Shown: positions 16,258 to 43,166 of the stretch, one piece after another
Position numbering within the stretch: position 1 is the first letter of the stretch
Layout: every line of letters starts with the position of its first letter
DNA from: Gigantopelta aegis
Lineage: Eukaryota
Reading direction: 5' to 3'
Assembly: GCF_016097555.1 (NCBI RefSeq)
Contig: NC_054701.1
Coordinates: 67,224,366-67,288,365 of the forward strand
Length of the DNA: 64,000 bases
The notes under the pieces: generated by a model
The model's input: the letters and a program-made list of their open reading frames with translations, nothing else
Database searches by the model: none
What the model was told of the DNA's origin: nothing
Translations under genes and position numbers: made by a program

Positions 16258-16545
16258 GTATCCAGTAACAAAGAAGGAAGGAGATGTTTTATTTAACGAT
16301 AAAGTCAACACATTTTATTTACGGTTATATGGCGTCAGACATATGGTTAAGGAACACACAGATATTGAGAGAGGAAACCCGCTGTTGCCACTTCATGGGC
16401 TAGTCTTTTCGATTAGCAGCAAAGGCCCTTTTATTTGCACCATCCCACATACAGGATAGTACATACCACGGCCTTTGTTACACCAGCTGTGGAGCACTGG
16501 CTGGAATGAGAAATAGCCCAATGAGCCCACCGACGTGTTTTTTTG
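16258..16545 (-). repeat. tRNA-derived SINE, family A, reverse orientation
   Basis: The tail motif gaaggaaatgttttatttaacga..ggcgtcagacatatggttaagga comes first. The body matches the + copies at 28905 and 43204. Confidence 0.7.
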
Positions 16546-17104
16546 CAGTGAGGTCTGGTATGTAAAGTCTACCTTCTACATAGGCTACCTTCATGGACTA
16601 CAGGCCCGTAGCATGGTGGACATTATTGGGGAGGGGGTGGGCAGTTGAACGAGCGCCGCGGGCGCGAGTTATTTGGGGGGTCCGGGAGCATGTTCAAATG
16701 TTTTTTGCCCGTTACTGTAACTCTCGCCGTTAATCTTGATCCGTTAGTTTCGCTACAACTTTTACATTCAGTCGATATGTAAATGTTATCCCCCCCAAAA
16801 AAAAACCCCAACAACAACAAAACACAGCCAAAATTATTGGGGGGCCCGATCCCCCTGGCCACCCCCCTGCTACGGGCCTGGGCTACTATTTTATATGCAC
16901 AATCCCCCCAGACAGGATAACACATATCATGGCCTTTGATATGCCAGTCGTGGTGCACTACATGGAGCGAGAAATACATGTATATATATGAAGATTTAAA
17001 TAATGCTTGACATGGAGAATAGTGGTTAAATCGCTTTATTTTTGCATAATTCTTTTGTCTTGACAGTAGGCCTATTTGACCATTTCTACAGTAAAGTAAA
17101 GTAA

Positions 17105-17480
17105 AGTTTGTTTTATTTAACTAGAGCACATTGATTTTTTATCTTATCATCGGCTATTGGACGTCAAACATATGGTCATTCAGACACTGTTTTTTTAGAG
17201 GAAACCCGCTGTCGCCACATAGGCTACTCTTTTACGACAGGCAGCAAGGGATCTTTTATTTGCGCTTCCCAGAGGCAGGATAGCACAAACCATGGCCTTT
17301 GTTGAACCAGTTATGGATCACTGGTCGGTGCAAGTGGTTTACACCTACCCATTGAGCTTTGCGGAGCACTCACTCAGGGTTTGGAGTCGGTATCTGGATT
17401 ACAAATTCCATGCCTCGACTGGGATCCGAACCCAGTACTTACCAGCCTGTAGACAGATGGCCTAACCACGACTGGTCATT
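17105..17480 (-). repeat. tRNA-derived SINE, family B, reverse orientation
   Basis: Reverse complement of the 27455-27840 copy. It ends with the head ..cctcgactgggatccgaacccagtacttaccagcctgtagac. Confidence 0.7.
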
Positions 17481-18275: not shown

Positions 18276-19243
18276 TGAATCTATTTTTTTTTTTTTATTT
18301 TTTTTTTTTATTATTATTTTTTTTTTATTATTATTATTTTTTTTATTTTATTATTATTATTTTTTTTTTTTTTTGGGGGGGGGTGGCAAAATTGGGCAAA
18401 ACGGCCAATTACCTTTGTGTACGATATGTCGTACCTTCTCTCCCTTCGTGAACAATCTTTAAATATTCAAACAAACCAAACGTAAAAAGGACAGAAAAAA
18501 AAAGAAGATAAAAATTAAAGTTTCTTTTGTTTAACAACACCACTAGAGCACATTGATTTAATATTTAACAAGGCACAATATTTCACGCGAACCGTCACGC
18601 AACATTAAAATCATGCGAATCACCCATTGGAACGTTTACATTCTAAAATTATAAGTTACAAACTTCGGGATCATCGGAATTTTATTAGCTATGCAAATAC
18701 AACTACCAAATACTGGGCTATCTAAATGAAAGTCAATCACGTACATGAGGCCGGATAGCACAAACCATGGCAATTGTTGAACCAGTTATGGATCACTGGT
18801 CGGTGCAAGTGGTTTGTCCCCAACCCATTGAGCCTTTCGGAGCACTCACTCAGGATTTGGAGTCGGTATCAAGATTAAAAGAACAAAGAAATAAAATAAA
18901 AAAAAAACTTAAGGAAAAAAAGAAAGAAAAGGAAAGAAAGAAAAACAACGAAAGAGAGGAGAAATGAATACGGTGGGGGTATTTTCGTCCTTGGAGAACC
19001 AGAGTACACCGGTATGTAACTGACGTCAGTGTGGTAAGTGAAATACCTCGCTGGTGATTGGATGATATATATTTATACATCCTTCTTGTTTACCTTCACC
19101 GAAGTAATCGAAGTGGACTTTTCAGGTGGGTGGATATTTCCCTCTCATTTGCACAACCTACAGTTAATACACTTCACTGTGTCACATTTTCACCTTTACA
19201 TTCTCACCTGCACTATGATGTGAATAAAACCTTTGAGACTAAT

Positions 19244-19277: not shown

Positions 19278-20136
19278 AGATATATTTGTAATTTGTCACA
19301 AAAGGCAGGTCTATAACGTGTATTATATAAGTTATTGGTAAGTTGTACTACCACCATACCCATTATTACTTTAGCACCGACATTTGTCATTTAAAGTAAT
19401 CAAATATATTATATGAAAATTAAGTATACTAAGTAATATTTATAAACCTCATAAAAACAGGTCATGTTTGTTCAAAGACTCGCCCACTACTGTTCTGATA
19501 ACGTATTTGGGGTCAAGGTATGTTGTTTATTCAAGCGTGACTAAAATGGCTATAGGCCTAACACATACCACTTACAATGTATGTCCTTGCATACTAGTCT
19601 ATGTACGTCAGTAAAACACACATATCAAGCGCGGTAACTAGTACTGTAGTTAATACATGTAATTACGGTTGTAACACAAGCATGGCGAGTGTAAACCTGT
19701 TTCGTATCGATTGTTTAATGTTAAAGTTTGTTGATGGTAGTTGCTATTGCAACCAAGGCCAAGTCACTAATTGTTACCGACCATAAACATGAATATGCAT
19801 GTGTATATAATGGTGCTCCACCCGATTAAATATGTTAATGAAAATTAATACTGTCAGCATTTTAAAAAGTAAAGTGTAAAAAAAATCAGTAGATTAATTT
19901 ATTACATTAACTAATATTGAATGAGGGGTACTGAGTAACAGCTAGGGCAATTGGTTTATTGCTATACTTTAAAACTTAAAAAAACTATATAAAAAAAACA
20001 AACACCGTCCCCCCAAAAAACCCCAAAACAACCCCCCAACAAAACAATCTCCCCCCAAAAAAACCCCAACCCAACCAAACAAAAAACAAAACAAACCAAA
20101 CCACACACCCTCCAACAACCAAACAAAAGAAAGAAA

Positions 20137-20455
20137 GAAAGAAATGTTTTATTTAACGACGCACTCAACACATTTTATTTACGGTTATATGGCGTCAGAT
20201 ATATGGTTAAGGACCACACAGATATTGAAGACTGGAAACCTGCTGTTGCCACTTCATGGGCTACTCTTTTCAATAAGCAGCAAGGGATCTTTTATATGCA
20301 CCATCCCACAAACAGGGTAGCATATACCACAGCCTTTGATATGCCAGTAGTGGTGCACTGGCTGGAACGAGAAATAGCCCAATGGGGATCAATCCCACAC
20401 CAACCACGTATCGAGCGAGCACTGTACCACTGGGCTACGTCCCGACCCTGCAAAG
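20137..20455 (-). repeat. tRNA-derived SINE, family A, near full length, reverse orientation
   Basis: Runs from the (TTC)n tail to the tRNA-like head. The head reads gggtcgggacgtagcccagtggtacagtgctcgctcgata on the reverse complement. Confidence 0.75.
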
Positions 20456-20689
20456 TTTGAAGTGCACTTAACCATAAATTACCAAATCTATAGGAATTGG
20501 AGACAGAATTACCTCGTGCTATTTTTGTAGACTGCACTGGCTTCAGAAATAAATGGAAGAGAAAAATAAAAGATAGGCCCTAACAGCTACTCTTTTCGAT
20601 TGGCAGCAATGGATATTTTATATGCCTAATAGGCCCACTGACGGGGATCGATCCCAAACCGACCGCACATCCAGCGAGCGCTGTACCAC

Positions 20690-20725
20690 TGGGCTACGCT
20701 TCGACCCCACAACCAAACAACATCC

Positions 20726-22339: not shown

Positions 22340-22600
22340 ACGGCGCAGTGCCTAAGCAAACGTCGGTCTTACAAGAATGACAGGTACAGGGTTCGCATCC
22401 CGGTACCGGCTCCAGCCCAGAGTGAGTTCTTAAGGGCACAACGGGTAGATGTAAGGCCACTACACCCTCCTTTTTTTCTCATTAACACTCTCAATAACAT
22501 ATATCTACTAACAATTAACCACTGAGGTGTGTGCCATAACAAGTGTGCTTGAACCGTAATTGAATATAAGCACGAAAATAGTTGAAATGAAATACGTTTT
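22340..22600 (+). repeat. tRNA-derived SINE, family C, inserted inside the TIR element
   Basis: Head ..cagggttcgcatcccggtaccggctcc.. and tail ..cttgaaccgtaattgaatataagcacgaaaatagttgaaatgaaat. Confidence 0.55.
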
Positions 22601-26523: not shown

Positions 26524-26663
26524 ATGGCAGCACCACGGAGATCAGAGGAGAATTCCATCTTCCGAATCCCCCCGTACTTCTACCTGCACTGCCTTGACCA
26601 GAATAGCAATGTGACCCGCTTGGAAATCGGGCCCAAGACCTACATCAGACAAGACAATGAGAG
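26524..26663 (+). CDS. MVP: MVP exon 1. Encodes [46 protein letters not shown](R)
   Basis: Matches the vertebrate MVP N-terminus ([43 protein letters not shown], from memory). Donor AG|gtgaga at 26664. Confidence 0.85.
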
Positions 26664-27454
26664 GTGAGACTCAAGATGTACAGTCTTAAAACAGGTCGTA
26701 AATTAAGTATTTGTTGCCCAGGGCGCTGACTTAACAACGGCATCGATGGCAATTGCCGTTGTTGAGATATAAATTGCTGTAGGTAGAGACCATCACCGAT
26801 AGCATTTTTGTGCTGCTGGATAAAAGTTACTGGCAAAATGAATATATCTGGTGTATGTTATCTGTCAGTATTTAACATTTGTACATTTGAAATATGTCTA
26901 CATGCAATAAAATAACCTGTAAGTCATATTTATTTTCTGTGAAAGTTGCCTTTTAAAAAAATTGCCATAGGTTTACTCAAAATTTCCATTGGTGGGCTGT
27001 TTCGCACACAGCAATTGTTTTCTTTTTGATGCCATGGGTGACAAATTCATAAGTTCCAGTCCTGGTTGCCCACAATTTAAAACCCCCAAAAAACTTGTCT
27101 TGGAAAAACAACTCACTAACTGCAATGTTGAATCTGACTACTGCAATTTTTATCAAGTTACTTGCAACAAATAAATATGACTGAAAGATTATTTTGCTGT
27201 ATGTAGACATATTTCTATATACAAATGTTAAATACTGGCAGATAATGTGTACCAGCTGTTTACATTTTGCCATAGTTATAAGCTCTACTGATGGCAGTGA
27301 GGTATATTCCAGCGGCACAAAAGTGCTGTCGGTAATGCCCCTGATCAACAGCAATTTATATCTTGTTAAGTTCAAGCCCTGTTAAAATAAAATCCAATCT
27401 TATTAGGTCACTTTGACCTTTAAGGTCTGTCATTATATCCAGGGCTTCTAGATT

Positions 27455-27840
27455 ATGATGTGGCGTCGTGGCAGGCCATCGGTCTACAGGCTGGTAGGTA
27501 CTGGGTTCGGATCCCAGTCGAGGCATGGGATTTTTAATCCAGATACCGACTCCAAACCCTGAGTGAGTGCTCCGCAAGGCTCAATGGGTAGGTGTAAACC
27601 ACTTGCACCGACCAGTGATCCATAACTGGTTCAACAAAGGCCATGGTTTGTGCTATCCTGCCTGTGGGAAGCGCAAATAAAAGATCCCTTGCTGCCAATC
27701 GGAAGAGTAGCCCATGTAGTGGCGACAGCGGGTTTCCTCTCAAAATCTGTGTGGTCCATAACCATATGTCTGACGCCATATAACCTTAAATAAAATGTGT
27801 TGAGTGCATCGTTAAATAAAACATTTCTTTCTTTTTCTTT
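27455..27840 (+). repeat. tRNA-derived SINE, family B, in MVP intron 1
   Basis: Head ggctggtaggtactgggttcggatcccagtcgaggc. Body is shared with family A. The tail ends ..gttaaataaaacatttctttctttttctttctag. Confidence 0.75.
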
Positions 27841-28904
27841 CTAGATTATGATAGCCCCACTCCCATGGCTTGTGATATCAATGTTGTGCTAGTAAATAAC
27901 TACTAATAAGATGCCCGACGGCTAGTCAATTTTTCTTTGTCAAATGTTGCAGTTAAGTCTTATTTTGTAAATATGATTATGCTGCCCCCACCCCAACCCC
28001 CAATCTTACTGTTTTTAAGCTCTATCTCCCTGTTTATGTGACATATCTGATTATTACTATTATTTAGTAAAATTGTATTAACTTAAAACTAAAGTAGGGC
28101 TGGTGAATTTTTAATTGTGGCTAGTAAAATTTTTTAAATCACTGATCCCATGGCTAGTGGATTTTATAACTATTCTAGTAACCGTGTTATATCTAAGCAA
28201 AGCTCAGGACTAGAAAGTAATGGCTGCGATATCTGTTGTCATCAGTCAACGGCTGTACTGGTTTGAACACTGGTTAAAAAATATTGTGATTGGTTAAACT
28301 TAAAGGGATAATTTTGTGTTTATTTGTTACAAAAATTACTGATTTAAAATAGCAGTAGTCAGGCTCAAAATGGCCAAAACCTTTAAAAATTGCTGTAGGT
28401 AACAAATTATTAAGTTCAAGCCCAGAAAGCCAGTGTCACACGATATTCAGATGATCTGTTATTTGACCAATCAAATTACACTTAATATTGTAGACACTTT
28501 ATATAAAACTTAACAATTGGCTAATTTGGCAATAGACTTGATGAGCCCTTATTATAATTTAATCCCTGATTTCTACTTCATTTCCAGTCTGGGAAAGTGC
28601 ATATAAAAGATACCTTGCTGTATTAGGGAAAAAAGTAGCAGGTTTCCTCAAATGACTACGTGTCAGAATTACCAAATTTTTGACATGCAATCGCCGATAA
28701 TCCGACGCCATATAACCATAAATAAAATCTGTTGAGTGCATCGTTAAATAAAACATTTCCTTCCAATAGCTGATGATGACTTAATCAATGTGCTTTAATG
28801 TTAAACAAAATAAACTTTAACTTTTTTTATGTATGCATGGATCTGCTGGTTTTCTCTCTCAAAACTGGAACAGTTTGTAACATTTTAACTTAATCCCTTA
28901 ATTT

Positions 28905-29240
28905 GTGGGGCAGGACGTAGCCCAGTGGTAAAGCGTTCACTTGCTGCACAGTCGGTCTAGGATCGATCCCCATCGGTGGACTCATTGGGCTATTTCTTGT
29001 TCCAGCCAGTGCTCCACAACTGGTGTAACAAAGACCGTGGTATGTACTATGATGTCTGTGGGATGGTGCATATAAAATATCCCTTGCTGCTAATTGAAAA
29101 GAGTAGCCTATGAAGTGGTGACAGTGGGTTTCCTCTCTATATATCTCTGTGGTCTTTAATCATATGTCTGACGCCATATAACTGTAAATAAAATGTGTTG
29201 AGTGCGTTGTTAAATAAAACATTTCCTTCCTTCGTTCCCT
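28905..29240 (+). repeat. tRNA-derived SINE, family A, full length, ending 23 nt before MVP exon 2
   Basis: tRNA-like head gggcaggacgtagcccagtggtaaagcg..ggatcgatcccc carries A-box-like and B-box-like blocks. Tail ..gcgttgttaaataaaacatttccttcc. Confidence 0.8.
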
Positions 29241-29262
29241 TAGTTTGTACTATAATTTCCAG

Positions 29263-29582
29263 AGTGGTGTTGGGTCCCGAGAAGATGATCATTGTTCCCC
29301 CGCGCCACTACTGCGTGGTGGAGAACCCCGTGATCCGAAACAAGGACCTGGAGATCGCCTTCAATGAGGCGGGGCAGGTCAGGCTTCACCACGCCGACCA
29401 GGAGATCCGCCTCGCCCAGGAGCCGTTCCCACTGTACCCGGGGGAGGTGCTCAAGCAGCCAGTCACACCCCTTAAAGTCGTCCCGGCCAACTCGGCGCTT
29501 CGGCTGAGGGCGATCCTCGACTTCGAAGACCAGACGGGAGAGAAACGGACAGCAGGCGATGAGTGGTTGTTTGAAGGACCAG
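29263..29582 (+). CDS. MVP: MVP exon 2. Encodes (R)[55 protein letters not shown](G)
   Basis: Acceptor atttccag| at 29261-62. Donor G|gtaaga at 29583. Aligns with human [48 protein letters not shown]. Confidence 0.9.
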
Positions 29583-30694
29583 GTAAGAATAAAATGATGG
29601 ATGTAGTTATAAATCTATCGTTTGTCTCACAGTGAACACCTTTTTTTTCTTCATACTATGGAATTTACTACATACTATGGAATTTACTACAAGTTATTTA
29701 TTTCAGAGCCGTAGCCGATGATGAATTAATCAATGTGCTCCAGTGGTGTCGTTAAACAAAAACAAACATTTTTAAAATTTCTGAGCCAATTGTTTAGGTT
29801 TTTTTGTTATTTCCAGAGCATGTTTACTTTTCTTCTTATGTCAAACCAAACTGAAATTATTTATAAAAAACCCCTTTTTTGTAGGATGGGACCGGACAAT
29901 AGTTGTGCATTATAAACTAGCTCTTATACCATTTAATGGGTTTTTTCTTTTTTTAAATTTAATTTGTTTTTTTTTATATAAATTTTATAAACCCCAGAAA
30001 CAAATTTGGTAGTGTCAGGGTATACCATTTTACATAAAATGGAACAAAACCACCAATTTTACATTAAGACATATTCCAAAATTGACAGTCCTGTCTGTGG
30101 GATGGTGAATATAAAATATCCCTAGCTACTAATGGAAAAATGTTGCAGGTTTCCTCTCTAAGATGGATCCAATCAACTGATTGGGTTTTTTCTCTCATTC
30201 CAGCCAGTGTATCATGACCAGTATATCAATGGCTGTGGTGTGTGCTATCCTGTCTGTGGGATGATGCATATAAAAGGCCCCTTGCTACTAATGGCAAAAT
30301 GTAACATGTTTCCTCTCTAAGACTATGTCAAAATGACCAAATGTTTAATATCTTATAGCTGATGATTAATAAATCAATCTGCTCTAGTGGTGGTGTTAAA
30401 CAAATGTTTTAACTAATGGGTTATACACCTTCCATTCTTACCAGTTCTTATACCCCATTTTATGTTAGGATGTTAAGACTAAAGTCAAAAGCTAGTAGAT
30501 TGTTTTTGTACTAGCACAACTCAGTACCATAAATGTTCTAGTCTGTGCACACTTCACAACAACCATCTCCACACCCAGCAGACTCCCACTGGTCAGGTGA
30601 AATGATTTTACAAGTTCATAATTTCAAAAAAAAATCTGAATTCTCAGAGATGTCTTTTGAAAATATATTAATTTGCTGTATGTTTCTATCACAG

Positions 30695-30921
30695 GCACAT
30701 ATATTCCCAGGAAAGAAGTTGTCGTGGAAGAGGTTGCTAGGGCGACTGTGATAAAACCGAATCAGGCGATTCGCCTGCGTGCGAGAAAGGAGTGCCTGGA
30801 CCGTGACGGCAATGCCCGCGTGACAGGAGAGGAGTGGCTCGTTAAGAAGACAGGTGCCTACCTGCCCGGGGCGTACGAAGAAGTCATTGATGTCGTCAGT
30901 GCATACATCCTCACAGAAAAG
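30695..30921 (+). CDS. MVP: MVP exon 3. Encodes (G)[64 protein letters not shown]
   Basis: Acceptor tttctatcacag|. Donor AAG|gtagtc at 30922. Aligns with human [43 protein letters not shown]. Confidence 0.9.
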
Positions 30922-31142
30922 GTAGTCTCACCTGACAGGGTTTCATTTTATTTTGTTTTTATTATGTTTGTTTTTTTCTCATTCTAACTAGTGCCACATA
31001 ATTAGTATGTGCTGTCCTGTTTGTAGGATAGTGCATAAATAAAAAAGATCCCTTGCTGCTAATGGAAAAATTTACTGGGTTCCTGTGAAGACTGTGTCAG
31101 AATTACCAAATGTCTGCCATCCAATAGCTGATGATGACCGAC

Positions 31143-31522
31143 CTTGGTGGTGTCATGGTTAGGCGATCGGTCTACAGGCTGGTAGGTACTGGGTTCAGAT
31201 CCCAGTCGAGGCATGGGATTTTTAATCCAGATACCGACTCCAAACCCTGAGTGAGTGCTCCGCAAGGCTCAATGGGTAGGTGTAAACCACTTGCACCGAC
31301 CAGTGATCCATAACTGGTTCAACAAAGGCCATGGTTTGTGCTATCCTGCCTGTGGGAAGGGCAAATAAAAGATCCCTTGCTGCTAATCGGAAAGAGTAGC
31401 CCATGAAGTGGCGACAGCGGATTTCCTCTCAAAATCTGTATGGTCCTTAACCATATGTCTGACACCATATAACCGTAAATAAAATGTGTTGAGTATGTCG
31501 TTAAATAAAACATTTCTTTCGA
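31143..31522 (+). repeat. tRNA-derived SINE, family B, in MVP intron 3
   Basis: Near-identical to the copy at 27455-27840. Confidence 0.75.
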
Positions 31523-31918
31523 ATAGCTGATGATTAATTAATGTCCTCTAGAGGTATCATTAAACAAAACAAACATTTAACAAATATTATGTAGACAAAG
31601 TGTCACAAAAATCGTATACTCCAAATAATTGTAGTTTTAATTGTTGTGGTATGTGCTGTCCTATCCTTCCAAAAAAGTACTTTCAAGAAATATATTTCTG
31701 TATACAGTAAAGTACACTTATAATGAATTACTGCATAGAACAAACTGATCGTAAAGTCCTGTTTTATCTCCCTATACATTGATAACCAACTTATGCAAAT
31801 GTGCACAGCGAACTGCTTCTATAACGAACTAACTATCAGGATCCCTTCCAGTTCATTATAAGAGTACTTTAACTGTAGCTACATTGTAAATGCTAACTGC
31901 AATATGTATGTGTTACAG

Positions 31919-32044
31919 AAAGCTCTGCACATGCGGGCGTTGAGGACGTTCAAGGATGACTTTGGCATGACACGGAAGAACGGCGAAGAATGGCTGATTA
32001 CTACCAAGGACACCGAGGCACACATCCCTCATGTGTATGAGGAG
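31919..32044 (+). CDS. MVP: MVP exon 4. Encodes [42 protein letters not shown]
   Basis: Acceptor tgtgttacag| at 31917-18. Donor GAG|gtgaga at 32045. Aligns with human [42 protein letters not shown]. Confidence 0.9.
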
Positions 32045-33437
32045 GTGAGACTAGCCGGGCTGTCTGTTACAGTTTATCATAGTGATGACGTCCATAAATA
32101 GTAGTTACTAAAACTGATCAGTCCCTGGTTGGGCCTCTGGCTTTCCAGAGACAGGACCCGAGACAGACATGCTCGAAACCTTAGTGGTATAGGAGCATGT
32201 TAAAATATATTGCACTTGCACTATAACTGTCATATTTGTCTTGCCTTTATGCAGTGAAAAAGGCAAGATATACGTAGAGATTATTATACGAGCTTGTGTG
32301 TTGTACTGATTTTACAAAACGAGGGTCAGGATTATTGTATTAACTGAGCGAGAGCGAGGGTAATACATGAATCCTGACATAAGTTTCGTAAAAATCAGTA
32401 CTATTCACATGCGAGTGTAATAATTTCTTTATTATACAAAATATTATTTTCATGAATAAAGAGCTAGGACCATGTCAAACTGTTTCAAACATAACTGAAA
32501 AGAGACGACGAAACGACGTCATTTTCCGAAATGATATCATTAAGATAAGCGTTTATACTGGGGAAGCTGCATTAAGTTATGACATTGCTACACAAAATTA
32601 CGTCATTCGCTGTGTAAGTGAAATCGTTAAGACACACGTGGGTCATACTGGATATATTTCCCTGAATATCTTGAACTATGTGGATAATAAATGTAGATAT
32701 TACTTTTCCCACAGAGAAAGCATTAACGTTTGCGGTATAGCTTAAGTTTTACGTTTAGATCCGTTTCTCACAGACTATAAGTCCTAGATAAGTGATACTT
32801 GTCTTATGGTTGTTCATGTGGATGTTCAGGTGCATGTGAAAAGAATTAAGAATTAATTAATTAAAAGTTTTGCTCAGCGTTAAAAGTTTTGTGTTTAAAT
32901 TCAATTCTCAAAAACCTTTTAAGTCCTAGATCAATAAAACTTGGTTTGTACTTGCAACTATGGATGTTCATCCAGTGGCGTAGCATGGGCGGTGCCACCA
33001 GGGCAGTTGCCCTGAGCACAAAATTCTGCTGGATTGGTGGAAGGGACTTGGGGAGTGCTAATGGTCCACTGGTTGGGGGGCGCAGTACTTGCCTTGCCCT
33101 GGACGCTGGTAACCCATGTGTTCATCACAATGCATGTGACTAAAATAAAACTTATTAATTACAATTTTTAATTGCATTTCTTTTATTCTACTTACAATTT
33201 GTGACACCCAATAGCCAATGTGTATTTTTGTGCTGGAGTGTCGATAAACATTTATTCATTCTTTTATTAAATTGTTTTTTAAAACATTCACTGAGATGAA
33301 CTTTTTATTGATGCAACTATCAATACCGAATACATTTATCGTAGGCGAGATGTTTACTTGAATTCTTGTTTGTTTATATAAACAATGTGATGTATTATGC
33401 ATCTTATTTTATGATGTATGTTAAACTTTGTGTTTAG

Positions 33438-33548
33438 GTTGTGGGTGTGATCAACATTACTACGCTTTCTAACAGACAGTACTGTGTGATTCTCGACCCC
33501 ATTGATGAAACGGGAAACCCTCGACTCGGTATGAAGAGACTGGTGAAG
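33438..33548 (+). CDS. MVP: MVP exon 5. Encodes [37 protein letters not shown]
   Basis: Acceptor tgtgtttag| at 33436-37. The donor is a GC donor, AAG|GCAAGT, at 33549-54. Aligns with human [37 protein letters not shown]. Confidence 0.85.
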
Positions 33549-34402
33549 GCAAGTCGTGTTTTTAGCGGACGTATGTACTAATGAATTTGAAAGATAAATA
33601 TACAACTGTGTGTTACTTTTATTCTGCTAATTGTGACCCCGTAATTGCTTTTAGAATAGTATAATTTTGATAATGAAATGCATGTTAATAATTACAATGC
33701 AGATTTGATGAAAAATATTTAGAAAATTATATATTATAAAAACTAATTCAATCTTAATTTTATTCCACATTATTTTACTTTAAAATATGCATTAAAATCA
33801 TGTATTTGATATTTTTAAAAAAAGAGTAATTTATTGTATTTTTGACATGCAATTCAGTACAAAACGTTGATGGTATTGTCATATTTTCCTCTGGTGCATC
33901 AAAGATATTCAGTGGTATTTACTGAAAATGCAAACAGACCCCTTGCTGCTGTTCATGTGACGTGGCTGGTCTGGTGACAAGAGGCTTTTTCTTTCCTTCT
34001 CTAGACCCAGTGTCGAAATAACTCTAAACAAAATAGCCTCAGTTTAAAATGTAGGCCTTCTGGACCCAAGCTTATAAAACGTGAGTCCAGACTCGATTTC
34101 TAATGAAGTCGCACACATTCATTTTGTCTGGGGGTGTAATGACATTAGTGTCACACTTAGTCTCGAGTCTAGACTCTTAATTGTTTTATAAGCACTGTTA
34201 AACACCATTCCTGTTCATTGTTCCTGGCAGTTACTATATAATGTATTAAACATGTGTTTGCAAGGAGAGAAGTCCTTCTTTCTGATGTCAAGGGAGAAGT
34301 TGGAAAAGGGAATTCAGAATGTGTACTATAATGCACTATTATGCACTATTGTGCACTATTAGGTACTATAATAAGCTGTAATGTACTAATGCATATTTTC
34401 AG

Positions 34403-34537
34403 GGAGAGAAGTCATTCTTTCTGATGCCAGGGGAGAAGCTGGAAAAGGGAATTCAGAACGTGTACATCCTGGGAGAGGACGAGGGACTTATCCTCCGCGC
34501 CACTGAGACGTTCAAGGAGAAGGATGTCGGGGAAAAG
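34403..34537 (+). CDS. MVP: MVP exon 6. Encodes [45 protein letters not shown]
   Basis: Acceptor gcatattttcag| at 34401-02. Donor AAG|gtaaaa at 34538. Aligns with human [33 protein letters not shown]. Confidence 0.9.
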
Positions 34538-34552
34538 GTAAAAATGGTTATA

Positions 34553-35500
34553 AACATAACACTACACACGTCAGGGGTGTAGACTGGGTGCTGGGGGGGG
34601 GGGTTTGGACGAACATATCCAGTCATACACATAACACACACATCAGGGGTGTAGACTGGGTGCTGGGGGGGGGGGTAGACTGGGTGCTGGGGGGGGGGGG
34701 GGGGTTTGGACGAACATATCCAGTCATACACATAACACTACACACGTCAGGGGTGTAGACTGGGGGGTGGGTGGTGTGTTTGGATGAACATATCCAGTCA
34801 TACACATAACACTACACACATCAGGGGTGTAGACTGGGTGCTGGGGGGGGGGGGGTGGGACGAACATATCCAGTCATACACAAAACACTACACACGTCAG
34901 GGGTGTAGACTGGGGGGTGGGTGGTGGGTTTGGATGAACATATCCACTTTCATACACATAACACTACACACATCAGGGGTGTAGACTGGGGGGCGGGGGG
35001 GGGGGTTTGGACGAACATATCCAGTCATACACACAACACTACACATGTCAGGGGTGTAGACTGGGGGGTGGGTGGTGGGTTTGGATGAACATATCCACTT
35101 TCATACACATAACACTACACATCAGGGGTGTAGACTGAGGGGTGGGAGGGGGGGGTTTGGATGATGAACATATCCACAGTCATAAACATAACACTACACA
35201 CATCAGGGGTGTAGACTGGGGGGTGGGGGGGGGGGTTTGGACGAACATATCCACTTTCATACACATAACACTACACGCATCAGGGGTGTAGACTAGGGGG
35301 GGTTTGGATGAACATATCCAGTCATACACATAACACTACACACATCAGGGGTGTAGACTGGGGGTGGGTGGTGGGTTTGGATGAACATATCCAGTCATAC
35401 ACATAACACTGCACACGTCAGGGGTGTAGACTGGGGGGTGGGTTGGTGTTTTTGGATGAACATTATACACATACACATAACACTACAGACATCAGGGATG
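34553..35500. repeat. Minisatellite in MVP intron 6. About 12 copies of an approximately 78-bp unit with a G-rich core (ggggtgtagactggggggtgggtggtgggtttgg)
   Basis: Successive units ..acataacactacacacgtcaggggtgtagactgggg..tttggacgaacatatccagtcatac.. read directly. ORFs 34453-34984 are artefacts. Confidence 0.9.
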
Positions 35501-36379
35501 ATGGGGAGGTTGGTGGATTTGGATGAATAACACTACAGATATTCTACCACATGATTGAGACAATCCTTTGTGCACATAATGTAATACGGTAAAATTGCGC
35601 AATTAATCATTTGTTGTTTGTGATTTGCGGAAGTCTAGTTTTTGAGTTTCTGATCTTTTGTTTGGGCATTAAATTTAGGACATGATTTACCTGGACATAA
35701 TCAACATAACATATTTTGGACCCAAAGATCAACTGTTTTCGTGAGTGTGCTTTAAAATTATTCAGAGTGCATACATTAAGGAGGAAGAGTTGTCTGCCCT
35801 TTCATGTGAAGTGTCATAGTGATGCTAGTCACACTAAACATGGTAGTGATACAAATATTTTATATGGTCGGTTGTGTTATCACTAACATATATGGGGTGT
35901 CAACATGTCAACCCATTGAAAAAACAATTTTAAAAGCTCGGAAAAAACAAGAGGTGCTTAAATATATTTAAAGGTGAGGATCGGTCCCCTGTAGTGCAGG
36001 GCACATATTAAGTCAATGCTTTTCTTAATGTGCAGGGCGAGTTGCTTCCCTCTATTTAGCAAATTTAAAATGGTGGGCAAATGTCTTATGTTGTTGTTGG
36101 AAGATTTATTTTGTTAATAATGATGCAAGTACATCAACTGGGATTTAGTGAGTATGATAGGTCATACATTTTTGGTTTGTGTGTCCATTTGTTGCACTAT
36201 TTCGGTTGAGAAATGGTTGAAACATGGTGCCACATGTTTTGAATGCCAGCTATGTAGAGGATATGTAAGAATATTCGGACGTAGAAAGAACCACACTTTC
36301 GATGTCCGTTCAGACTAGGTCCCTTGGTCCACTCTGGATCTGCCTCTGAGCAGTAAGATTCCATTGTGTTTGTTAACAG

Positions 36380-36529
36380 GAGATAACTCGCAGACCTGGA
36401 GACAAGTGGATGATCCGTGGACCTAAAGAATATGTCCCACCCGTTGAAGTCGAAGTTGTGATGAAGAGACAGGCCATCCCATTGGACGAAAATGAAGGCA
36501 TTTACGTCAGAGATATCAAATCGGGAAAG
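36380..36529 (+). CDS. MVP: MVP exon 7. Encodes [50 protein letters not shown]
   Basis: Acceptor tttgttaacag|. Donor AAG|gtaatt at 36530. Aligns with human [45 protein letters not shown]. Confidence 0.9.
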
Positions 36530-37370
36530 GTAATTCAGAAAAATGTGTTTTTAAAAATCTGTCCTAGTTTATCCTAAAAGTTTGTTTTCTTTAACAACAC
36601 CACTAGAACACATTGAATTATTATTAATCATTGGTAAACATTTGGTAATTTTGACAGTCTTTGAGAGGAAACACACTAAATGTTTTCCATTAGTAGCAAT
36701 GGATCTTTTATATGCACCATCCCACAGCCAGGATAGCACATACCACAGCCTTTGATATACCAGCTGGGGTGCACAGGCTGTTGAATTAAACAAATAAAAC
36801 AGTATATGATACATTGTAGAACAATGCAAATAAGAATGACTACATCTGACAGTGATTACTAAATCAATGTGCTATAGTTGTGCAATGAAATAAAACAAAC
36901 TTTTCATGGAATCTACAGTATTTAACACACTATTATGTAATATATAAATATTATACATTTCCTGGCTCCACAATGTAGTTAGTACGGCCTCCGTGGGTCC
37001 AGAATGTATTGGACTCGAGTCAAACCTGACTACCTGACTACTTGAGTACCTGACACTTACACTAGATGATAATGAGATTAAGGAATAAAGTAAAATAGCA
37101 TTATGTATCTGAATTCCAGCGTTGAACATGAATGCCAAATGGTGCCATTATATTGCATTCCACACATTCGATTTTTTGTTTTCCTTCCATATCTCGTAGC
37201 ACTATAATGTAACTGGCATCAAGCATATGACAAAATGACATAAAACAATATAATTAAATGAGAGTGCTCTCCCTTGCATGGGTACTCGAGTCCTGTGAAC
37301 GGACTTGAGTCTTACTAGACTCGGTCCGTGGCCGAGTACTTGTGGAGACTCTGGTATTTGTTTGCTATAA

Positions 37371-37688
37371 CAGGGGCGGGATGTAGCCGAGTGTCAAAGC
37401 GCTCTCTTGGTGCCCCGTCGGTCTGGGATCGGTCCCCATCGATAGACCCATTGGGCTATTTCTTGTTCCAGACAGTGCACCATGACTGATATATCAAAGG
37501 TTGTGGTATATACTACCCTGTCTGTGGGATGATGCATATAAAAGATCCCTTGCTGCTAATCAAAAAGAGTAGTCCATGAAGTGGCGACAGCGGGTTTCCT
37601 CCCTCAATACGATGTGGTCCTTAATGATATGTCCAACGCCATATAACTGTAAATGTGTTGAATGTGTCTTTAAATAAAACATTTCAGG
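37371..37688 (+). repeat. tRNA-derived SINE, family A, in MVP intron 7
   Basis: Head gggcgggatgtagccgagtgtcaaagcg..ggatcggtcccc and the shared body and tail. Confidence 0.75.
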
Positions 37689-38275
37689 CCCGTAGCCAGG
37701 ATTTTTTTTTGGGGGGGGGGTCGTTTAGGCTTATAGTTAGGGTGGTCCACAGGGGGTATTAAAAAAAAGTCACCCATAAGTCACCCCCCTGATCCCCCAT
37801 TGGCTATGGGCCTGCATTTCCTTCCTTTAGTTGCTATTACAGTAGCACATTTGGTTTCATTATACAGTATTGATCTCGAAGGATTGTTTTAGGCTTTCTT
37901 GTTTTATATGCTTATAAAAACTGGGTTTTTTGTTTAACGACACCACTAGAGCACATTGATTGATTAATCATCGGCTATTGGATGTCAAACATTTTGTAAT
38001 TCTGACTCGTAGTCAACATTGGAAACCCGCTACATTTTTCCTAATGCAGAAAGGGATGTTTTATATGCATCATCCCACAGACAGGATAGCACATACCACA
38101 GCCTTTGATATACCAATCGTGGTGCACTGGCTGGAATGAGAAATAACCAGATGGGCATGAAAAGTATTTAACAGTTTTTGTATAAAATCATTAAAGATTA
38201 TTTTACACTTGTTTGTTCATCTACGTATCCTTTCATAGAATCAACAGTATTTAACACGTTTTTATTTTCTGCCAG

Positions 38276-38514
38276 GTCCGTGGTGTCACGGGTATAACAT
38301 ACATGTTGAACCAGGACGAGGAGCTGTGGGAGAAGACGGTGCCCCCCACCGTCGAGGGACTTCTCCAGCAGGGCAAGGACCCTCTGGCCGACCGTAGTGA
38401 TCGCAGTGCGCGCGAGTCCACGCCGAAAACTCGCGACAAGACGCGGGTCATCAACTTCCGGGTTCCTCACAATGCGGCTGTTCAGATCTACGACTATAAG
38501 GAAAAGAAAGCAAG
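38276..38514 (+). CDS. MVP: MVP exon 8. Encodes [64 protein letters not shown](R)
   Basis: Acceptor ttttctgccag| at 38274-75. Donor AAG|gtaggt at 38515. Aligns with human [65 protein letters not shown]. Confidence 0.9.
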
Positions 38515-39209
38515 GTAGGTCATTCCGTTTTGCAAGCGTCTGAAAAGTGCAAGAGCGATAATTTTGTTTGCAATGTGTACTTTTGCGTAACCCATTTTTC
38601 ATTGTGCTATAACTTTTAGGAGTCTATTGGTAATTTAAAGCACTTGCTTGATGCTCGGTCGGTTTGGGATCGATTCTCGTTTGTAGGCCCATTGGGCTGT
38701 TCCTCGTTCAAGCCAGTGCACCACAAAGGCCATGGTATGTGCTATCCTGTCTGTGGGATGGTGCATATAAAAGATCCCTTGCTGCTAATGGAAACATTCA
38801 GCGAGATTCCTCTCTAAGACTATGTTAAAATTACCAAATGTTTGACATCCAAGAGTTCTAGTGGTGTCATTAAACAAAACAAACTCGAACAGTAACTTTA
38901 GGATATCAATTATATTGTTGTATCAGGTTATGCAAAAGGAAATGTGTTATCTGTAATTTGTTTTGTGTAATCCATAAATGTTTTACACAAATTTCAATTA
39001 TCAAAGACCTGGCTCCATCAATACATACATATATATAATTAACTAAAACGTACACAAAATTGGTCTTGAAACATAATTATTTGCTCTTGTGCAATTTTAT
39101 GTTTGGATGACCAAATATCTAGTTTGAAAATGTGCTGAGAGGAACCATTTCTTTCTATGTATATTTTTTCTCTCTCGCTCCCTCTCCCTCTCCCTCTCCA
39201 ACTCTCTCC

Positions 39210-39320
<111 letters not shown>

Positions 39321-39453
39321 CCTCCTTCCTTCCTATCTTTTTGTACCACCACTACCAACATTGTAGTTCAATTAAGATCACACCAATTTCTTTTATAAAT
39401 AATCTTGTGGATGTTCCTACCAACTGTATGTGACATGTTGTTTGTTATTTCAG

Positions 39454-39651
39454 AGTTGTGTTTGGCCCTGAGCTGGTGATGCTTGGTCCAGATGAACAGT
39501 TCACCCAGCTCAGTCTGTCTGGTGGGAAGCCCAAGAAACCCAACGTCATCAAGTCTCTGTGTCTGCTGCTCGGCCCAGATTTCTGCACAGACATCATCGT
39601 CGTGGAGACGGCTGACCATGCCCGACTTTCTCTTCAGCTCTCATACAACTG
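39454..39651 (+). CDS. MVP: MVP exon 9. Encodes (R)[65 protein letters not shown](W)
   Basis: Acceptor tttgttatttcag| at 39452-53. Donor TG|gtaagt at 39652. Aligns with human [63 protein letters not shown]. Confidence 0.9.
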
Positions 39652-40211
39652 GTAAGTCTGTTGTAATACACAAGGTTATAATATTTCTTAAACTTTTTTT
39701 TTATTTGCTGATAAAATATGGATAAAAGTGACCTTTGGGAAAAATAGTCTGATTACTACCAAATTTTACTATATAATTGGATTTGAATCCTGAAATGTGG
39801 AAACGAGTCCCATTTTAGTAATGGATCTTCTGTTGATACATGATTCATCTAACTTTCGTTCCAGCCAAGTGCTCCACAACTGGTGTAGCAAAGTCTGTGG
39901 TATGTACTATGCTGTCTGTCGGATGATGCATATAAAAGATCCCTTGCTGCTAATCGAAAAGAGTAGTCCATGAAGTGGCGACAGCGGGTTTCCTCTCTCA
40001 ATATCTGTGTGGTCCGTAACCATATGTCTGGTGCCATATAACCGTCAATAAAATGTGTTGAGTGTGTCGTTAAATATAAGATTTAGATGGTATTCATAAT
40101 TAATTTTGTCACAGGTTCAGTTTTAACCATTGTGATAATTCTGTAATTCTAATGAGTAACTACTGCCAACATACCTATAACAGTATTTAATGTAAGATCT
40201 GTACTATGCAG

Positions 40212-40353
40212 GTTCTTTGAAATCAAGTCGAAGTCTCCCGAGGAAGCGGCCAAGCTGTTCAGTGTCCCGGACTTTACGGGAGATTCCTGCAAGGCCATCG
40301 CCTCCCGTGTGAGAGGAGCTGTAGCTCAGGTCCAGTTCGATGACTTTCACAAG
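40212..40353 (+). CDS. MVP: MVP exon 10. Encodes (W)[47 protein letters not shown]
   Basis: Acceptor ctgtactatgcag| at 40210-11. Donor AAG|gtttgt at 40354. Aligns with human [49 protein letters not shown]. Confidence 0.9.
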
Positions 40354-40622
40354 GTTTGTACTCGACCCCATGTAATATATAGAGGATTCGTCATCAGGGT
40401 TTTTAAATATGGAAAATATCAACCAATACTACATTTACTGATTAACTGGACAAGGTTGATATTTTCCATATTAATCTTTAGACTACTGGATTAATTTTTG
40501 ACAAAAACCATGTTGAGTGTGTACAAGATTTTTGCTCTAGATCTAGTGTCTTTTACACCTAATAGCCACAACTTGAAATAGTGTGCAGCGGTATCTTTAA
40601 ACAAACATTCCTTTCCTTTCAG

Positions 40623-40834
40623 AATTCTGCTAAAATCATCCGAGCTTCCGTGTTCGGCTTTGATGATAAGAACAAGGTGCGCGACCGGTTTATTTTCTCC
40701 CAGAACAGCCTGGTGATCACGAGCATCGACATCCAGTCGGTGGAGCCCGTCGACCAGCGAACCCGCGACTCGCTCATAAAGTCTGTGCAGCTTGCCATCG
40801 AGATCACAACCAACTCGCAGGAAGCTGCTGCCAG
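40623..40834 (+). CDS. MVP: MVP exon 11. Encodes [70 protein letters not shown](R)
   Basis: Acceptor ttcctttcctttcag| at 40621-22. Donor CAG|gtagat at 40835. Aligns with human [50 protein letters not shown]. Confidence 0.9.
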
Positions 40835-41640: not shown

Positions 41641-41825
41641 AGTATTCAGAACATTCAAGAACTCTGTGTTTAGTCAATAATATCATGAAGGTGATATTGT
41701 TAGTATGCACATTGAGTATCAGCATGCATATTGAGTATAGGGGTATTGGTAAGAAAGTAAGAAATTCTTCATTTAGGCTTTGTACAGCTGCTATTCACAC
41801 ATACCCCAACCTGTATTATCTTGTA

Positions 41826-43164: not shown

Positions 43165-43166
43165 TT

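What the first reader, a model, noticed from the sequence alone, without database searches (positions are those of the whole stretch)
27455..29240. Three tRNA-derived SINE families with different heads but a shared body and (TTC)n tail; at least 10 copies inside the MVP locus
Family A (head gggcaggacgtagcccagtggtaaagcg..) and family B (head ..ggctggtaggtactgggttcggatcccagtcgagg) share a roughly 200-bp body (..gtctgtgggatggtgcatataaaagatcccttgctgctaat..ccatataaccgtaaataaaatgtgttgagtgcgtcgttaaataaaacatttc). A sub-variant of family A swaps in a different tail (..aatcaatgtgctctagtggtgtcgttaaacaaaacaaa). Family C has its own head and an ..attggatataagc..ttgaaataaaatga tail. This modular head and tail shuffling is a textbook picture of SINE evolution. 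The copy density is high enough to affect MVP pre-mRNA folding and splicing.
Basis: seen in the sequence. Interest (0 to 1): 0.5.

Follow-up and report, generated by a model that had tools for sequence, protein, structure and literature searches.

The report
Mosaic tRNA-derived SINEs filling MVP introns
The repeats are real but ordinary: short tRNA-derived retrotransposons (SINEs) built from interchangeable heads and tails, scattered through the introns of the major vault protein gene of an unidentified animal, in a pattern already described for mollusc SINEs.

Summary
The window holds about 40 insertions or fragments of three related SINE families. They cover 12.4% of the window, and 18 of them lie in the MVP gene, covering 21% of its span. 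Families A and B have unrelated tRNA-like heads but share a 228-nt body plus tail at 90% consensus identity (z=155). That is not low complexity. At least nine copies have 8-14 bp target-site duplications. Many copies are 5'-truncated, and several are nested in older copies.

- The two tails are diverged homologues (73% identity), not unrelated.
- Family B also occurs with both tails, so all four head x tail combinations exist.
- Family C does not have its own head. Its 5' 120 nt are homologous to B's 5' part, so B is a C-like 5' half joined to an A-like 3' half.
- The terminal repeat is (TTTC/TTCC)n.

The same families occur at non-orthologous sites in a related species' MVP locus and in metagenome contigs. 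No partner LINE was found, and no named superfamily could be assigned. The same two-heads-by-two-tails pattern is published for Littorina SINEs. Effects on splicing are untested. However, one SINE tail forms the polypyrimidine tract of an MVP exon, and an inverted SINE pair flanks another exon.

The parts
27460..27840 (+). Family B with tail 1 (B1), near full length and the youngest copy (98% identical to consensus). TSD CTAGATTATGAT at 27448-27459 and 27841-27852.
28583..28815 (+). Family A with tail 2 (A2), 5'-truncated. It is interrupted at tail position 104/89 by the next element.
28701..28764 (+). 64-nt 5'-truncated tail-1 fragment nested in the A2 tail. Diverged TSD CAATCGCCGATAAT / CAATAGCTGATGAT.
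28907..29236 (+). Family A with tail 1 (A1), full length (92%). TSD CCCTTA(A/G)TTTGT at 28895-28906 and 29237-29248. It ends 24 nt before the acceptor AG of MVP exon 2 (29261-29262).
29712..29767 (+). Tail-2 3' fragment (95%).
30089..30404 (+). Two adjacent A2 fragments: 30089-30163 and the 5'-truncated 30180-30404.
31005..31574 (+). A2, 5'-truncated, split by a full-length B1 at 31142-31520 (97%). TSD AATAGCTGATGAT, at the same tail position as the 28701 insertion.
36580..36780 (-). A2, 5'-truncated, antisense to MVP.
36853..36900 (+). Tail-2 3' fragment.
37373..37685 (+). A1, full-length head (88%). Its 3' end is cut off by an unrelated repeat.
37928..38155 (-). A2, 5'-truncated, antisense to MVP. 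It is the upstream arm of an inverted pair flanking exon 38273-38524.
38636..38884 (+). A2 with an A head (from position 23) and tail 2. It is the downstream arm of the inverted pair.
39856..40084 (+). A1, 5'-truncated (consensus 91-318, 93%).
41834..41989 (+). Family C copy with an internal deletion and a truncated 3' end.
41990..42108 (+). A1 fragment (a body piece plus consensus 223-327, 94%). Its TTTCCTTCCTTC tail directly abuts the acceptor AG (42109-42110) of an MVP exon.
43200..43512 (+). A1, full length (90%). TSD TAACTCTTTTTTTT. A run of about 28 G lies between the 5' TSD and the head. The element ends about 40 nt upstream of exon 43554.
16273..16533 (-). A1, 5'-truncated (consensus 67-327, 92%).
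16889..16976 (-). Family A body fragment.
17106..17472 (-). Family B with tail 2 (B2), near full length.
18520..18558 (-). Tail-2 3' fragment.
18748..18880 (-). Family B internal fragment (consensus 80-211, 92%).
20133..20448 (-). A1, full length (88%), with a (TTTC)5 tail.
20586..20698 (-). A head plus a body piece, internally deleted. [quoted passage not shown]
46740..46947 (+). A2 with a partial head.
46961..47347 (+). B1, full length including the 5' leader (93%). TSD TTTGTTCAGTGCA. The head at 46967-47039 is the only ARAGORN and Rfam tRNA-like hit in the window.
47840..48184 (+). Tail-2 fragment (47840-47888) with an A1 inserted into its end (47890-48184, 92%). TSD ATAAAAC(G/A)AAAC.
48390..48693 (+). 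A1, near full length (92%).
49182..49519 (+). B2 (consensus from position 27), with an internal poly-G run.
51877..51950 (+). 74-nt tail-1 fragment. TSD TAATAGTGAAAA.
732..925 (+). Old A2 copy (about 77%).
8907..9162 (-). Family C, full length (88%).
22342..22593 (+). Family C (78%).
56588..56803 (+). Family C with a deletion (89%).
63032..63302 (+). Family C, full length (90%), with a GAAATAAAAATGAAATGA tail.
26542..43838 (+). Host gene: major vault protein. Exons mapped at 26542-26664, 29263-29584, 30694-30921, 31922-32047, 33438-33563, 34400-34540, 36377-36532, 38273-38524, 39413-39652, 40216-40365, 40605-40835, 42111-42354 and 43554-43838.

Best explanation
These are non-autonomous, tRNA-derived SINE retroposons of one reticulate group, copied into the locus many times by the reverse transcriptase and endonuclease of a partner LINE that I could not identify.

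Each element has four parts:
1. A Pol III-type head with A and B boxes.
2. A roughly 95-nt central body (CAGTGCACCAC..GGTGCATATAAAAGATCCCTTGCTGCTAAT).
3. A roughly 130-nt 3' region ending in ..GTCGTTAAA(T/C)AAAAC.
4. A short pyrimidine microsatellite (tail 1) or an (AAAC)-like end (tail 2).

Inferred mechanism:
- Pol III transcribes a master copy.
- The LINE protein recognises the conserved 3' end.
- It nicks the target with a stagger of about 12-14 bp and reverse-transcribes from the 3' end (target-primed reverse transcription).
- It often stops early, which leaves 5'-truncated copies.

The families differ by exchanged modules:
- A and B have unrelated heads on the same body and tail.
- B's first 160 nt are homologous to the first 120 nt of family C.
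- Both A and B occur with two diverged versions of the tail.
- The most economical origin is RT template switching or recombination between SINE RNAs, plus tail divergence that tracks two related LINE lineages.

What is shown: the sequence relationships, the TSDs, the truncations, the nesting, and the multi-copy presence in other genomes.

What is inferred: Pol III transcription, LINE dependence and template switching.
For: - **Copy number and significance.** About 40 insertions, with E-values down to 1e-170.
- **Shared module.** A1 and B1 are 90.4% identical over 228 nt, z=155.
- **Tails.** Y1 and Y2 are 73% identical, z=10.5.
- **B and C.** B's 5' part and C are 69% identical, z=28. The A and B heads are not related, z=3.
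- **All four head x tail combinations** are present. A full-length A2 is also seen in L018, and B2 copies in L008 and L015.
- **TSDs of 8-14 bp** flank the copies at 27460, 28701, 28907, 31142, 43200, 46961, 47890, 48390 and 51877.
- **Graded 5' truncations** with intact 3' ends.
- **Nested same-orientation insertions**.
- **tRNA-like heads.** ARAGORN gives cloverleaves for the A and B consensuses. Rfam tRNA scores 21.5 bits at 46967-47039. A combined A-box/B-box pattern is found 3 times against 0 in 100 shuffles.
- **Conserved 3' end.** The last 15 consensus positions scored (301-315, just before the terminal repeat) are the best conserved across 53 aligned copies, at 94%. This fits constraint for RT recognition.
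- **Other genomes.** The same families occur at non-orthologous positions in a related species' MVP locus (L001, 10 copies) and in unrelated contigs of a JGI metagenome and VAPF01050215.
- **Published precedent.** A 2 heads x 2 tails x common centre arrangement is described for Littorina (PMC4758252).
Against: - No partner LINE with a matching 3' end was found. The only RT-bearing LINE fragment in the window (10424-14106) has an unrelated 3' end.
- No head reaches the Rfam tRNA gathering score, and the C head gives no cloverleaf.
- Family B carries a conserved T5 run right after its tRNA-like part. That should terminate Pol III early, so how full-length B RNA is made is not explained.
- Because tails 1 and 2 are homologous, part of the 'shuffling' could be ordinary subfamily divergence.
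Confidence: 0.93

Rival explanations
1. This is one SINE family with ordinary subfamilies. On this view the 'different tail' and part of the 'different families' reflect gradual divergence of master copies (older A2 giving younger A1), not module swapping.
For: - Tails 1 and 2 are colinear homologues (73%, z=10.5).
- By eye, A2's region before the tail looks like A1's minus about 18 nt.
- A2 copies are older (77-91% to consensus) than A1 (88-94%) and B1 (93-98%).
Against: - Both tails occur on both heads (A1, A2, B1, B2). Without at least one recombination or template switch, this needs parallel evolution.
- The A and B heads are unrelated, yet they are joined to a 90%-identical 3' module at a sharp breakpoint (A1 position 100, B1 position 160).
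Confidence: 0.25
2. Some SINE copies have been co-opted into MVP RNA processing. They would supply the polypyrimidine tract and branch region of a constitutive exon, and they would form intronic duplexes that modulate splicing or back-splicing.
For: - The A1 fragment at 41990-42108 ends in TTTCCTTCCTTC immediately before the acceptor AG of the exon starting at 42111. The last 275 nt or more of that intron are SINE sequence.
- Inverted A2 copies flank exon 38273-38524. The arms are 84% (87 nt) and 78% (45 nt) complementary. The duplex energy is -173.6 kcal/mol against -52 +/- 6 for shuffles.
- 16 of the 18 copies in MVP are in sense orientation (p=0.0013), and 6 of 6 in the related species.
Against: - There is no RNA data.
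- The copy at 42108 is 94% identical to its consensus and so appears to be a fairly recent insertion. Its presence in the related species could not be checked, because L001 stops short of that exon. There is therefore no evidence of conservation.
- Tolerance of an insertion is not the same as function.
- Orientation counts are not independent, because nested insertions copy the host's orientation.
Confidence: 0.12
3. This is local tandem or segmental duplication of one repeat inside the MVP locus, not transposition.
For: The copies cluster densely and mostly share one orientation.
Against: - Every copy has different flanks and its own TSD.
- The families occur in other loci, another species and metagenome contigs.
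- Copies differ in their 5' truncation point.
Confidence: 0.01
4. These are MITEs or other DNA transposons, or tRNA pseudogenes.
For: They are short, non-coding and multi-copy, with a tRNA-like 5' end.
Against: - There are no terminal inverted repeats. The 5' end GGGGCGGGACG has no complement in the 3' end ..CATTTCCTTCCTTC.
- TSD length varies from 8 to 14 bp.
- There are 5' truncations and a 3' microsatellite.
- There is no tRNA hit at the Rfam gathering score, and 250-310 nt of non-tRNA sequence is attached.
Confidence: 0.01

Closest known systems
Littorina saxatilis Snail-domain SINEs Lsa_3 to Lsa_6 (Matetovici et al. 2016, PMC4758252)
   Same: - Two tRNA-like heads, each with its own linker, and two 3' body/tail modules are combined reciprocally around a common central domain. 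All four combinations are present in one genome.
- Family B here also has a head-specific linker of about 85 nt between the tRNA part and the shared body.
- No partner LINE is known for those SINEs either.
   Different: Sequence identity to the Snail or Nin-DC domains could not be tested, because no reference sequences were available. My recalled DANA sequence gave no significant body match. The host taxon here is unknown.
Highly-conserved-domain SINE superfamilies of molluscs: Meta/MESC, V/Vhc (RUDI), CORE, Deu, Nin-DC (PMC4824008, PMC4758252, PMC11481361)
   Same: - The architecture is tRNA head, then central domain, then a variable LINE-derived tail.
- Tails are exchanged between families (the 'mosaic' evolution described in those papers).
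- They accumulate in introns, and SINE-in-SINE or tandem-like arrangements occur.
   Different: - The central body here was found only in this genome, in one related species (L001) and in two environmental data sets. It was not found in three more distant MVP loci (L002-L004).
- No significant similarity was found to my recalled CORE (MIR), AFC or V-like sequences.
- Membership of any named superfamily is not established.
Primate Alu elements in introns
   Same: - Dense intronic SINEs can donate pyrimidine tracts and acceptor signals.
- Inverted pairs can flank exons.
- A sense-orientation excess near exons is documented for Alu (PMC3088655).
   Different: - Alu derives from 7SL RNA, has a poly(A) tail and is mobilised by L1. 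Its pyrimidine tract appears in the antisense orientation.
- Here the pyrimidine tail is on the sense strand of a tRNA-derived SINE with a specific, stringent-type 3' end.

Membership tests
tRNA-derived SINE (SINE2/tRNA class) | Short (under about 600 bp), non-coding, dispersed multi-copy element. | tested here: met
   Consensus lengths are 327 (A1), 384 (B1) and 267 (C) nt. There are about 40 copies in the window, plus copies in L001, L008-L016 and L018.
tRNA-derived SINE (SINE2/tRNA class) | 5' head derived from tRNA, with internal Pol III A and B boxes. | tested here: met
   - The A-box matches TRGCNNAGTGG exactly, and the B-box matches at 10 of 11 positions, in the A, B and C consensuses.
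- ARAGORN at a relaxed threshold folds the A and B heads as cloverleaves.
- Rfam tRNA scores 21.5 bits for one B copy, below the gathering score of 29.
- The C head gives no cloverleaf, but it is homologous to the B head.
tRNA-derived SINE (SINE2/tRNA class) | Target-site duplications and 5' truncation, as expected from LINE-mediated target-primed reverse transcription. | tested here: met
   TSDs of 8-14 bp flank nine copies. There is a graded series of 5'-truncated copies with intact 3' ends.
tRNA-derived SINE (SINE2/tRNA class) | 3' tail shared with a partner LINE. | tested here: inconclusive
   No LINE with this 3' end is present in the window or in the fetched loci. The LINE fragment at 10424-14106 ends differently. 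A whole-genome search was not possible.
tRNA-derived SINE (SINE2/tRNA class) | Transcription by RNA polymerase III. | not testable with these tools
   There is no expression data. The conserved T5 run in family B is a caveat.
Named conserved-domain SINE superfamilies (CORE, V, Deu, Meta/MESC, Nin-DC, Snail) | Central domain homologous to the superfamily consensus. | tested here: inconclusive
   Only sequences recalled from memory were available (MIR for CORE, zebrafish DANA, cichlid AFC, and a V-like fragment). None scored above shuffles outside the tRNA head. Repbase, Dfam and SINEBase were not available, and no sequence strings were found in the papers held.
Named conserved-domain SINE superfamilies (CORE, V, Deu, Meta/MESC, Nin-DC, Snail) | Domain conserved across distant taxa while heads and tails vary. 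| tested here: inconclusive
   - Within this genome the body is shared by elements with different heads and tails.
- Across taxa it was seen only in close relatives. It was absent from L002-L004.
- The body is not clearly better conserved than the rest of the element.
MITE / DNA transposon | Terminal inverted repeats and a fixed-length TSD. | tested here: not met
   The element ends are not complementary, and TSD length varies from 8 to 14 bp.
Functional tRNA gene | Reaches the covariance-model threshold and is a stand-alone unit of about 73 nt. | tested here: not met
   There are no Rfam hits at gathering score in the 64 kb, and every head is fused to 190-310 nt of SINE body.

The most novel reading that the evidence does not exclude
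The SINEs may be more than passengers in this gene. Four observations point that way:
- They sit almost exclusively in the sense orientation of MVP in two species.
- One copy supplies the whole 3' splice-site region (branch region plus polypyrimidine tract) of a constitutive exon.
- An inverted pair brackets a 252-nt exon in the arrangement that promotes back-splicing.
- Family B's head keeps a pre-tRNA-like 5' leader and a T5 trailer. This would mean that new SINE heads are captured from read-through transcripts of tRNA genes.

If these observations hold genome-wide, this SINE group would be a systematic source of splice-acceptor material and circular-RNA architecture in an invertebrate.
Probability: 0.12. 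Interest if true: 0.45.

Novelty: new member of a known kind. Interest (0 to 1): 0.2.

Why it matters
- **Genome annotation.** These repeats should be masked as SINEs. They make up a fifth of the MVP gene span and explain why its introns are larger than in the related species. For example, intron 1 is about 2.6 kb here and about 0.6 kb in L001.
- **Transposon biology.** The locus is a compact worked example of mosaic SINE evolution: two heads, two tails and a chimeric family, with datable nested insertions. The principle is already published for molluscs, so the gain is incremental.
- **Follow-up.** The only points that might justify follow-up are the sense-strand bias, the SINE-derived splice-acceptor region and the internal T5 run of the youngest family.

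Tried and rejected
- **Rfam scans** of the whole window at gathering score found nothing. Two sub-regions at E<=10 gave only one sub-threshold tRNA hit on a B head, and the rest was noise.
- **Full-text search for six diagnostic 18-23-mers** found no paper. No supplementary files are held for the two key mollusc SINE papers. The families could therefore not be matched to named consensuses.
- **Local alignments to sequences recalled from memory** (zebrafish DANA, MIR, cichlid AFC and a V-SINE-like fragment) gave no significant match outside the tRNA head. My by-eye impression of Nin-DC or V-domain similarity is therefore dropped.
- **Search for a partner LINE.** The window has an RT ORF (12113-12691, RVT_1) inside a degraded LINE at 10424-14106, but its 3' end is unrelated to either tail.
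- **Search for a minus-strand host gene at 16-22 kb**, to explain the all-minus SINE cluster there. I found only Tc1/mariner-like transposase remnants.
- **Search for an upstream TSD copy** for the SINE that abuts the exon at 42109. None was found.
- **Metagenome scan with the 19-mer ATAAAAGATCCCTTGCTGC.** Seven of the 16 loci returned carry real SINE copies. The other nine gave no match to the SINE consensuses beyond the 19-mer.
- **Organism.** It could not be identified. The best MVP exon match is 93% identical, so this genome is not itself in the protein collection.
Full report
**What is at the coordinates.**
The window is eukaryotic, with AT-rich introns and GC-rich exons. The finding's range 27455-29240 lies in intron 1 of a major vault protein (MVP) gene on the + strand.
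- The exon-2 peptide hits proteins carrying the Vault Pfam domains, some of them named 'major vault protein'.

The range contains four elements:
- A near-full-length family B element at 27460-27840.
- A 5'-truncated element with the alternative tail at 28583-28815.
- A 64-nt tail-1 fragment nested inside that element at 28701-28764.
- A full-length family A element at 28907-29236.

**How many copies, and is it more than chance.**
I used self-BLAST with the three local copies. I then BLASTed consensus sequences built from MAFFT alignments. Together they give about 40 separate insertions or fragments between 732 and 63302, with E-values down to 1e-170. They cover 7,934 bp, which is 12.4% of the window, and 21.4% of the MVP span. 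Eighteen lie in MVP. Counts by type:

| Type | Count |
|---|---|
| A head with tail 1 (A1) | 9 |
| A head with tail 2 (A2) | 9 |
| B1 | 3 |
| B2 | 2 |
| C | 7 |
| Head-less tail or body fragments | 10 |

**Anatomy and relationships.**
- The A1 (327 nt) and B1 (384 nt) consensuses are 90.4% identical over 228 nt (A1 100-327, B1 160-384). The score is 343 against 18 +/- 2 for shuffles. This refutes the 'low-complexity' alternative.
- The A and B heads are unrelated (z=3; only the B-box region aligns).
- B's first 160 nt are homologous to the first 121 nt of family C (69%, z=28). B has 25 extra nt that complete the tRNA T-arm, the acceptor strand and a trailer. C therefore does not have 'its own head'. 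B is a chimera of a C-like 5' half and an A-like 3' half.
- The last ~90 nt of the two tails are colinear homologues: Y1 ..ACCATATGTCTGACGCCATATAACCGTAAATAAAATGTGTTGAGTGCGTCGTTAAATAAAACATTTC and Y2 ..ACCAAATGTTTGACATCCAATAGCCGATGATTAATTAATCAATGTGCTCTAGTGGTGTCGTTAAACAAAACAAAC. They are 73% identical (z=10.5).
- By eye, A2's region before the tail looks like A1's minus about 18 nt.
- B occurs with both tails (B2 at 17106-17472(-) and 49182-519). All four head x tail combinations are therefore present.
- The terminal repeat of tail 1 is TTTCCTTCCTTC or (TTTC)2-5, rather than (TTC)n.

**Heads.**
- All three consensus heads match the Pol III A-box TRGCNNAGTGG exactly and the B-box GGTTCGANNCC at 10 of 11 positions.
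- A combined A/B-box pattern occurs 3 times in the window and never in 100 shuffles.
- ARAGORN at default settings calls only the B head at 46967-47039. At a relaxed threshold it folds both the A and B consensus heads as cloverleaves, but not C.
- Rfam's tRNA model gives 21.5 bits for 46967-47039, below the gathering score of 29. Nothing in the window reaches gathering.
- These are tRNA-derived heads, not tRNA genes.

**Evidence of retrotransposition.**
Target-site duplications flank nine copies:

| Copy | TSD |
|---|---|
| 27460 | CTAGATTATGAT |
| 28907 | CCCTTA(A/G)TTTGT |
| 31142 | AATAGCTGATGAT |
| 43200 | TAACTCTTTTTTTT |
| 46961 | TTTGTTCAGTGCA |
| 47890 | ATAAAAC(G/A)AAAC |
| 51877 | TAATAGTGAAAA |
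| 28701 | diverged 14-mer |
| 48390 | ATCTTTC |

- Copies form a graded 5'-truncation series with intact 3' ends. This is the signature of LINE-type target-primed reverse transcription.
- Younger elements sit inside older ones in the same orientation.
- Identity to consensus orders the families as A2 and C (77-91%), then A1 (88-94%), then B1 (93-98%).
- The last 15 consensus positions scored (301-315, just before the terminal repeat) are the best conserved stretch over 53 aligned copies, at 94%. This is expected if the partner reverse transcriptase recognises that end.

**Outside this locus.**
- The best database match to MVP exon 2 is 93% identical, so it is a related species and not this genome.
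- Its MVP locus (L001) aligns to the window only in exons (83-88% nucleotide identity). It nevertheless carries 10 A1-type copies at non-orthologous positions.
- Three more distant MVP loci (L002-L004) have none.
- A metagenome scan with a 19-mer from the body returned seven contigs with real copies, six from one JGI metagenome and one from VAPF01050215. They include a full-length A2 and many B2.
- The families are therefore genome-wide and shared within a clade.

**What could not be established.**
- **Partner LINE.** None was found. The window's only RT-bearing LINE remnant (10424-14106) ends differently.
- **Superfamily.** Reference libraries were not available. Diagnostic strings occur in no paper held, and no supplements are held. 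Alignments to sequences I recalled from memory (DANA, MIR, AFC, a V-like fragment) were not significant.
- **Organism.** It is unidentified.

**Comparison with what is known.**
- The pattern is textbook. Matetovici et al. 2016 (PMC4758252) describe the same thing in Littorina saxatilis. Two heads, each with its own linker, and two 3' modules are reciprocally combined around a common central domain, and all four combinations are present.
- Nishihara et al. 2016 (PMC4824008) and Martelossi et al. 2024 (PMC11481361) describe tail exchange, multiple LINE partners, intronic accumulation and SINE-in-SINE arrays in molluscs.
- I therefore rate this as a new member, at most, of a known kind. Interest is low.

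**The splicing and folding claim.**
This claim is untested, because there is no RNA data. Three sequence-level facts bear on it:
1. The A1 fragment at 41990-42108 (94% to consensus) ends in TTTCCTTCCTTC directly before the acceptor AG at 42109-42110 of the exon encoding ..[13 protein letters not shown]. With the C copy upstream of it, at least the last 275 nt of that intron are SINE. The polypyrimidine tract and probably the branch site are therefore SINE-derived. No upstream TSD copy was found.
2. Antisense A2 (37928-38155) and sense A2 (38636-38884) bracket exon 38273-38524. The arms are 87 nt at 84% and 45 nt at 78% complementary. The predicted duplex energy is -173.6 kcal/mol against -52 +/- 6 for shuffles.
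3. Sixteen of the 18 copies in MVP are in sense orientation (binomial p=0.0013), and all 6 intragenic copies in L001 are too. The counts are not independent, because nested insertions copy their host's orientation. A sense excess near exons is also known for Alu (PMC3088655).

**Oddities.**
- Family B, the youngest, carries a conserved GGGATTTTTAATCC immediately after its tRNA-like part, and a 6-8 nt leader before it. This holds in 6 of 8 copies, including copies from other data sets. It looks like a pre-tRNA leader and a Pol III terminator retained inside a SINE. How full-length B RNA is made is unexplained.
- Two independent insertions (28701 and 31142) hit the identical position of two different A2 tails. 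This suggests a target preference.

Noticed in passing
window 41990-42110: A 5'-truncated, internally deleted A1 SINE ends (TTTCCTTCCTTC) exactly at the acceptor AG of the MVP exon that starts at 42111. The polypyrimidine tract and the likely branch region of a constitutive exon are therefore SINE sequence. A family C copy (41834-41989) lies directly upstream, and no upstream TSD copy was found.
   Followed up: partly
window 37928-38155 (-) and 38636-38884 (+), flanking exon 38273-38524: An inverted pair of A2 SINEs brackets a 252-nt MVP exon. The arms are 87 nt at 84% and 45 nt at 78% complementary, and the predicted duplex energy is -173.6 kcal/mol against about -52 for shuffles. This is the geometry associated with back-splicing or exon skipping. 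No RNA data were available.
   Followed up: partly
window 16273-20698 versus 22342-63302; L001 1-20411: There is strong orientation clustering.
- All 7 SINE copies at 16-21 kb are on the minus strand.
- 30 of the 32 copies from 22 kb onward are on the plus strand, including 16 of the 18 in MVP.
- All 10 copies in the related species' locus are on the plus strand.
- No minus-strand host gene was found at 16-22 kb, only transposase remnants.

The cause is unknown. It could be selection, target-strand preference, or the direction of transcription or replication.
   Followed up: partly
window 40803-41630: The last ~35 nt of the MVP exon ending at 40835 are tandemly re-duplicated 4-5 times inside the intron. 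The duplicated unit also contains the exon's 5' splice site (..GGAAGCTGCTGCCAG|GTAGATACCGATTG) and an AT-rich 26-nt minisatellite. TRF finds periods of 250 and 276 nt at 94% identity, and 119 nt at 90%. This creates several decoy donor sites in sense orientation.
   Followed up: partly
window 27528-27541, 31217-31230, 47040-47053; L015 ~5320; L013: Family B has a conserved T5 run (GGGATTTTTAATCC, which can form a 5-bp hairpin) right after its 73-nt tRNA-like part, and a 6-8 nt leader (GACCGAC) before it. This resembles a pre-tRNA leader plus a Pol III terminator kept inside the youngest SINE family. Family C lacks this 25-nt piece.
   Followed up: partly
window 28701 and 31142: Two independent insertions (a 64-nt tail-1 fragment and a full-length B1) entered two different A2 copies at the identical tail position (A2 tail 89-104, CCAATAGCYGATGAT). 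Several other TSDs also begin near a TAG. This suggests a target preference of the partner endonuclease.
   Followed up: no
window 43172-43199, ~49430-49450, ~16215-16240: Runs of 14-28 G lie at or inside SINE junctions. One example is about 28 G between the 5' TSD and the head of the A1 copy at 43200. They may be untemplated 5' additions or a sequencing or assembly artefact.
   Followed up: no
window 10424-14106 (+); 7689-8243 (+); 17732-18175 (-): Other mobile-element remnants are present.
- A degraded LINE with endonuclease-like and RVT_1 reverse-transcriptase ORFs. Its 3' end is unrelated to the SINE tails.
- Two Tc1/mariner-type DDE transposase fragments. The first has a DDE_3 Pfam hit. 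The second is judged by eye from its translation.
   Followed up: partly
window 37686-37760 and ~16800-16886 (-): A further unclassified repeat (GGCCCGTAGCCAGG.. / GGCCCGTAGCAGGGGGGTGGCCAGGGGGATCGGGCCCCCC) cuts off two SINE copies.
   Followed up: no
window 26665-29262 versus L001 9426-10033: MVP intron 1 is about 2.6 kb here but only about 0.6 kb in the related species. Four SINE insertions account for about 1 kb of the difference.
   Followed up: partly
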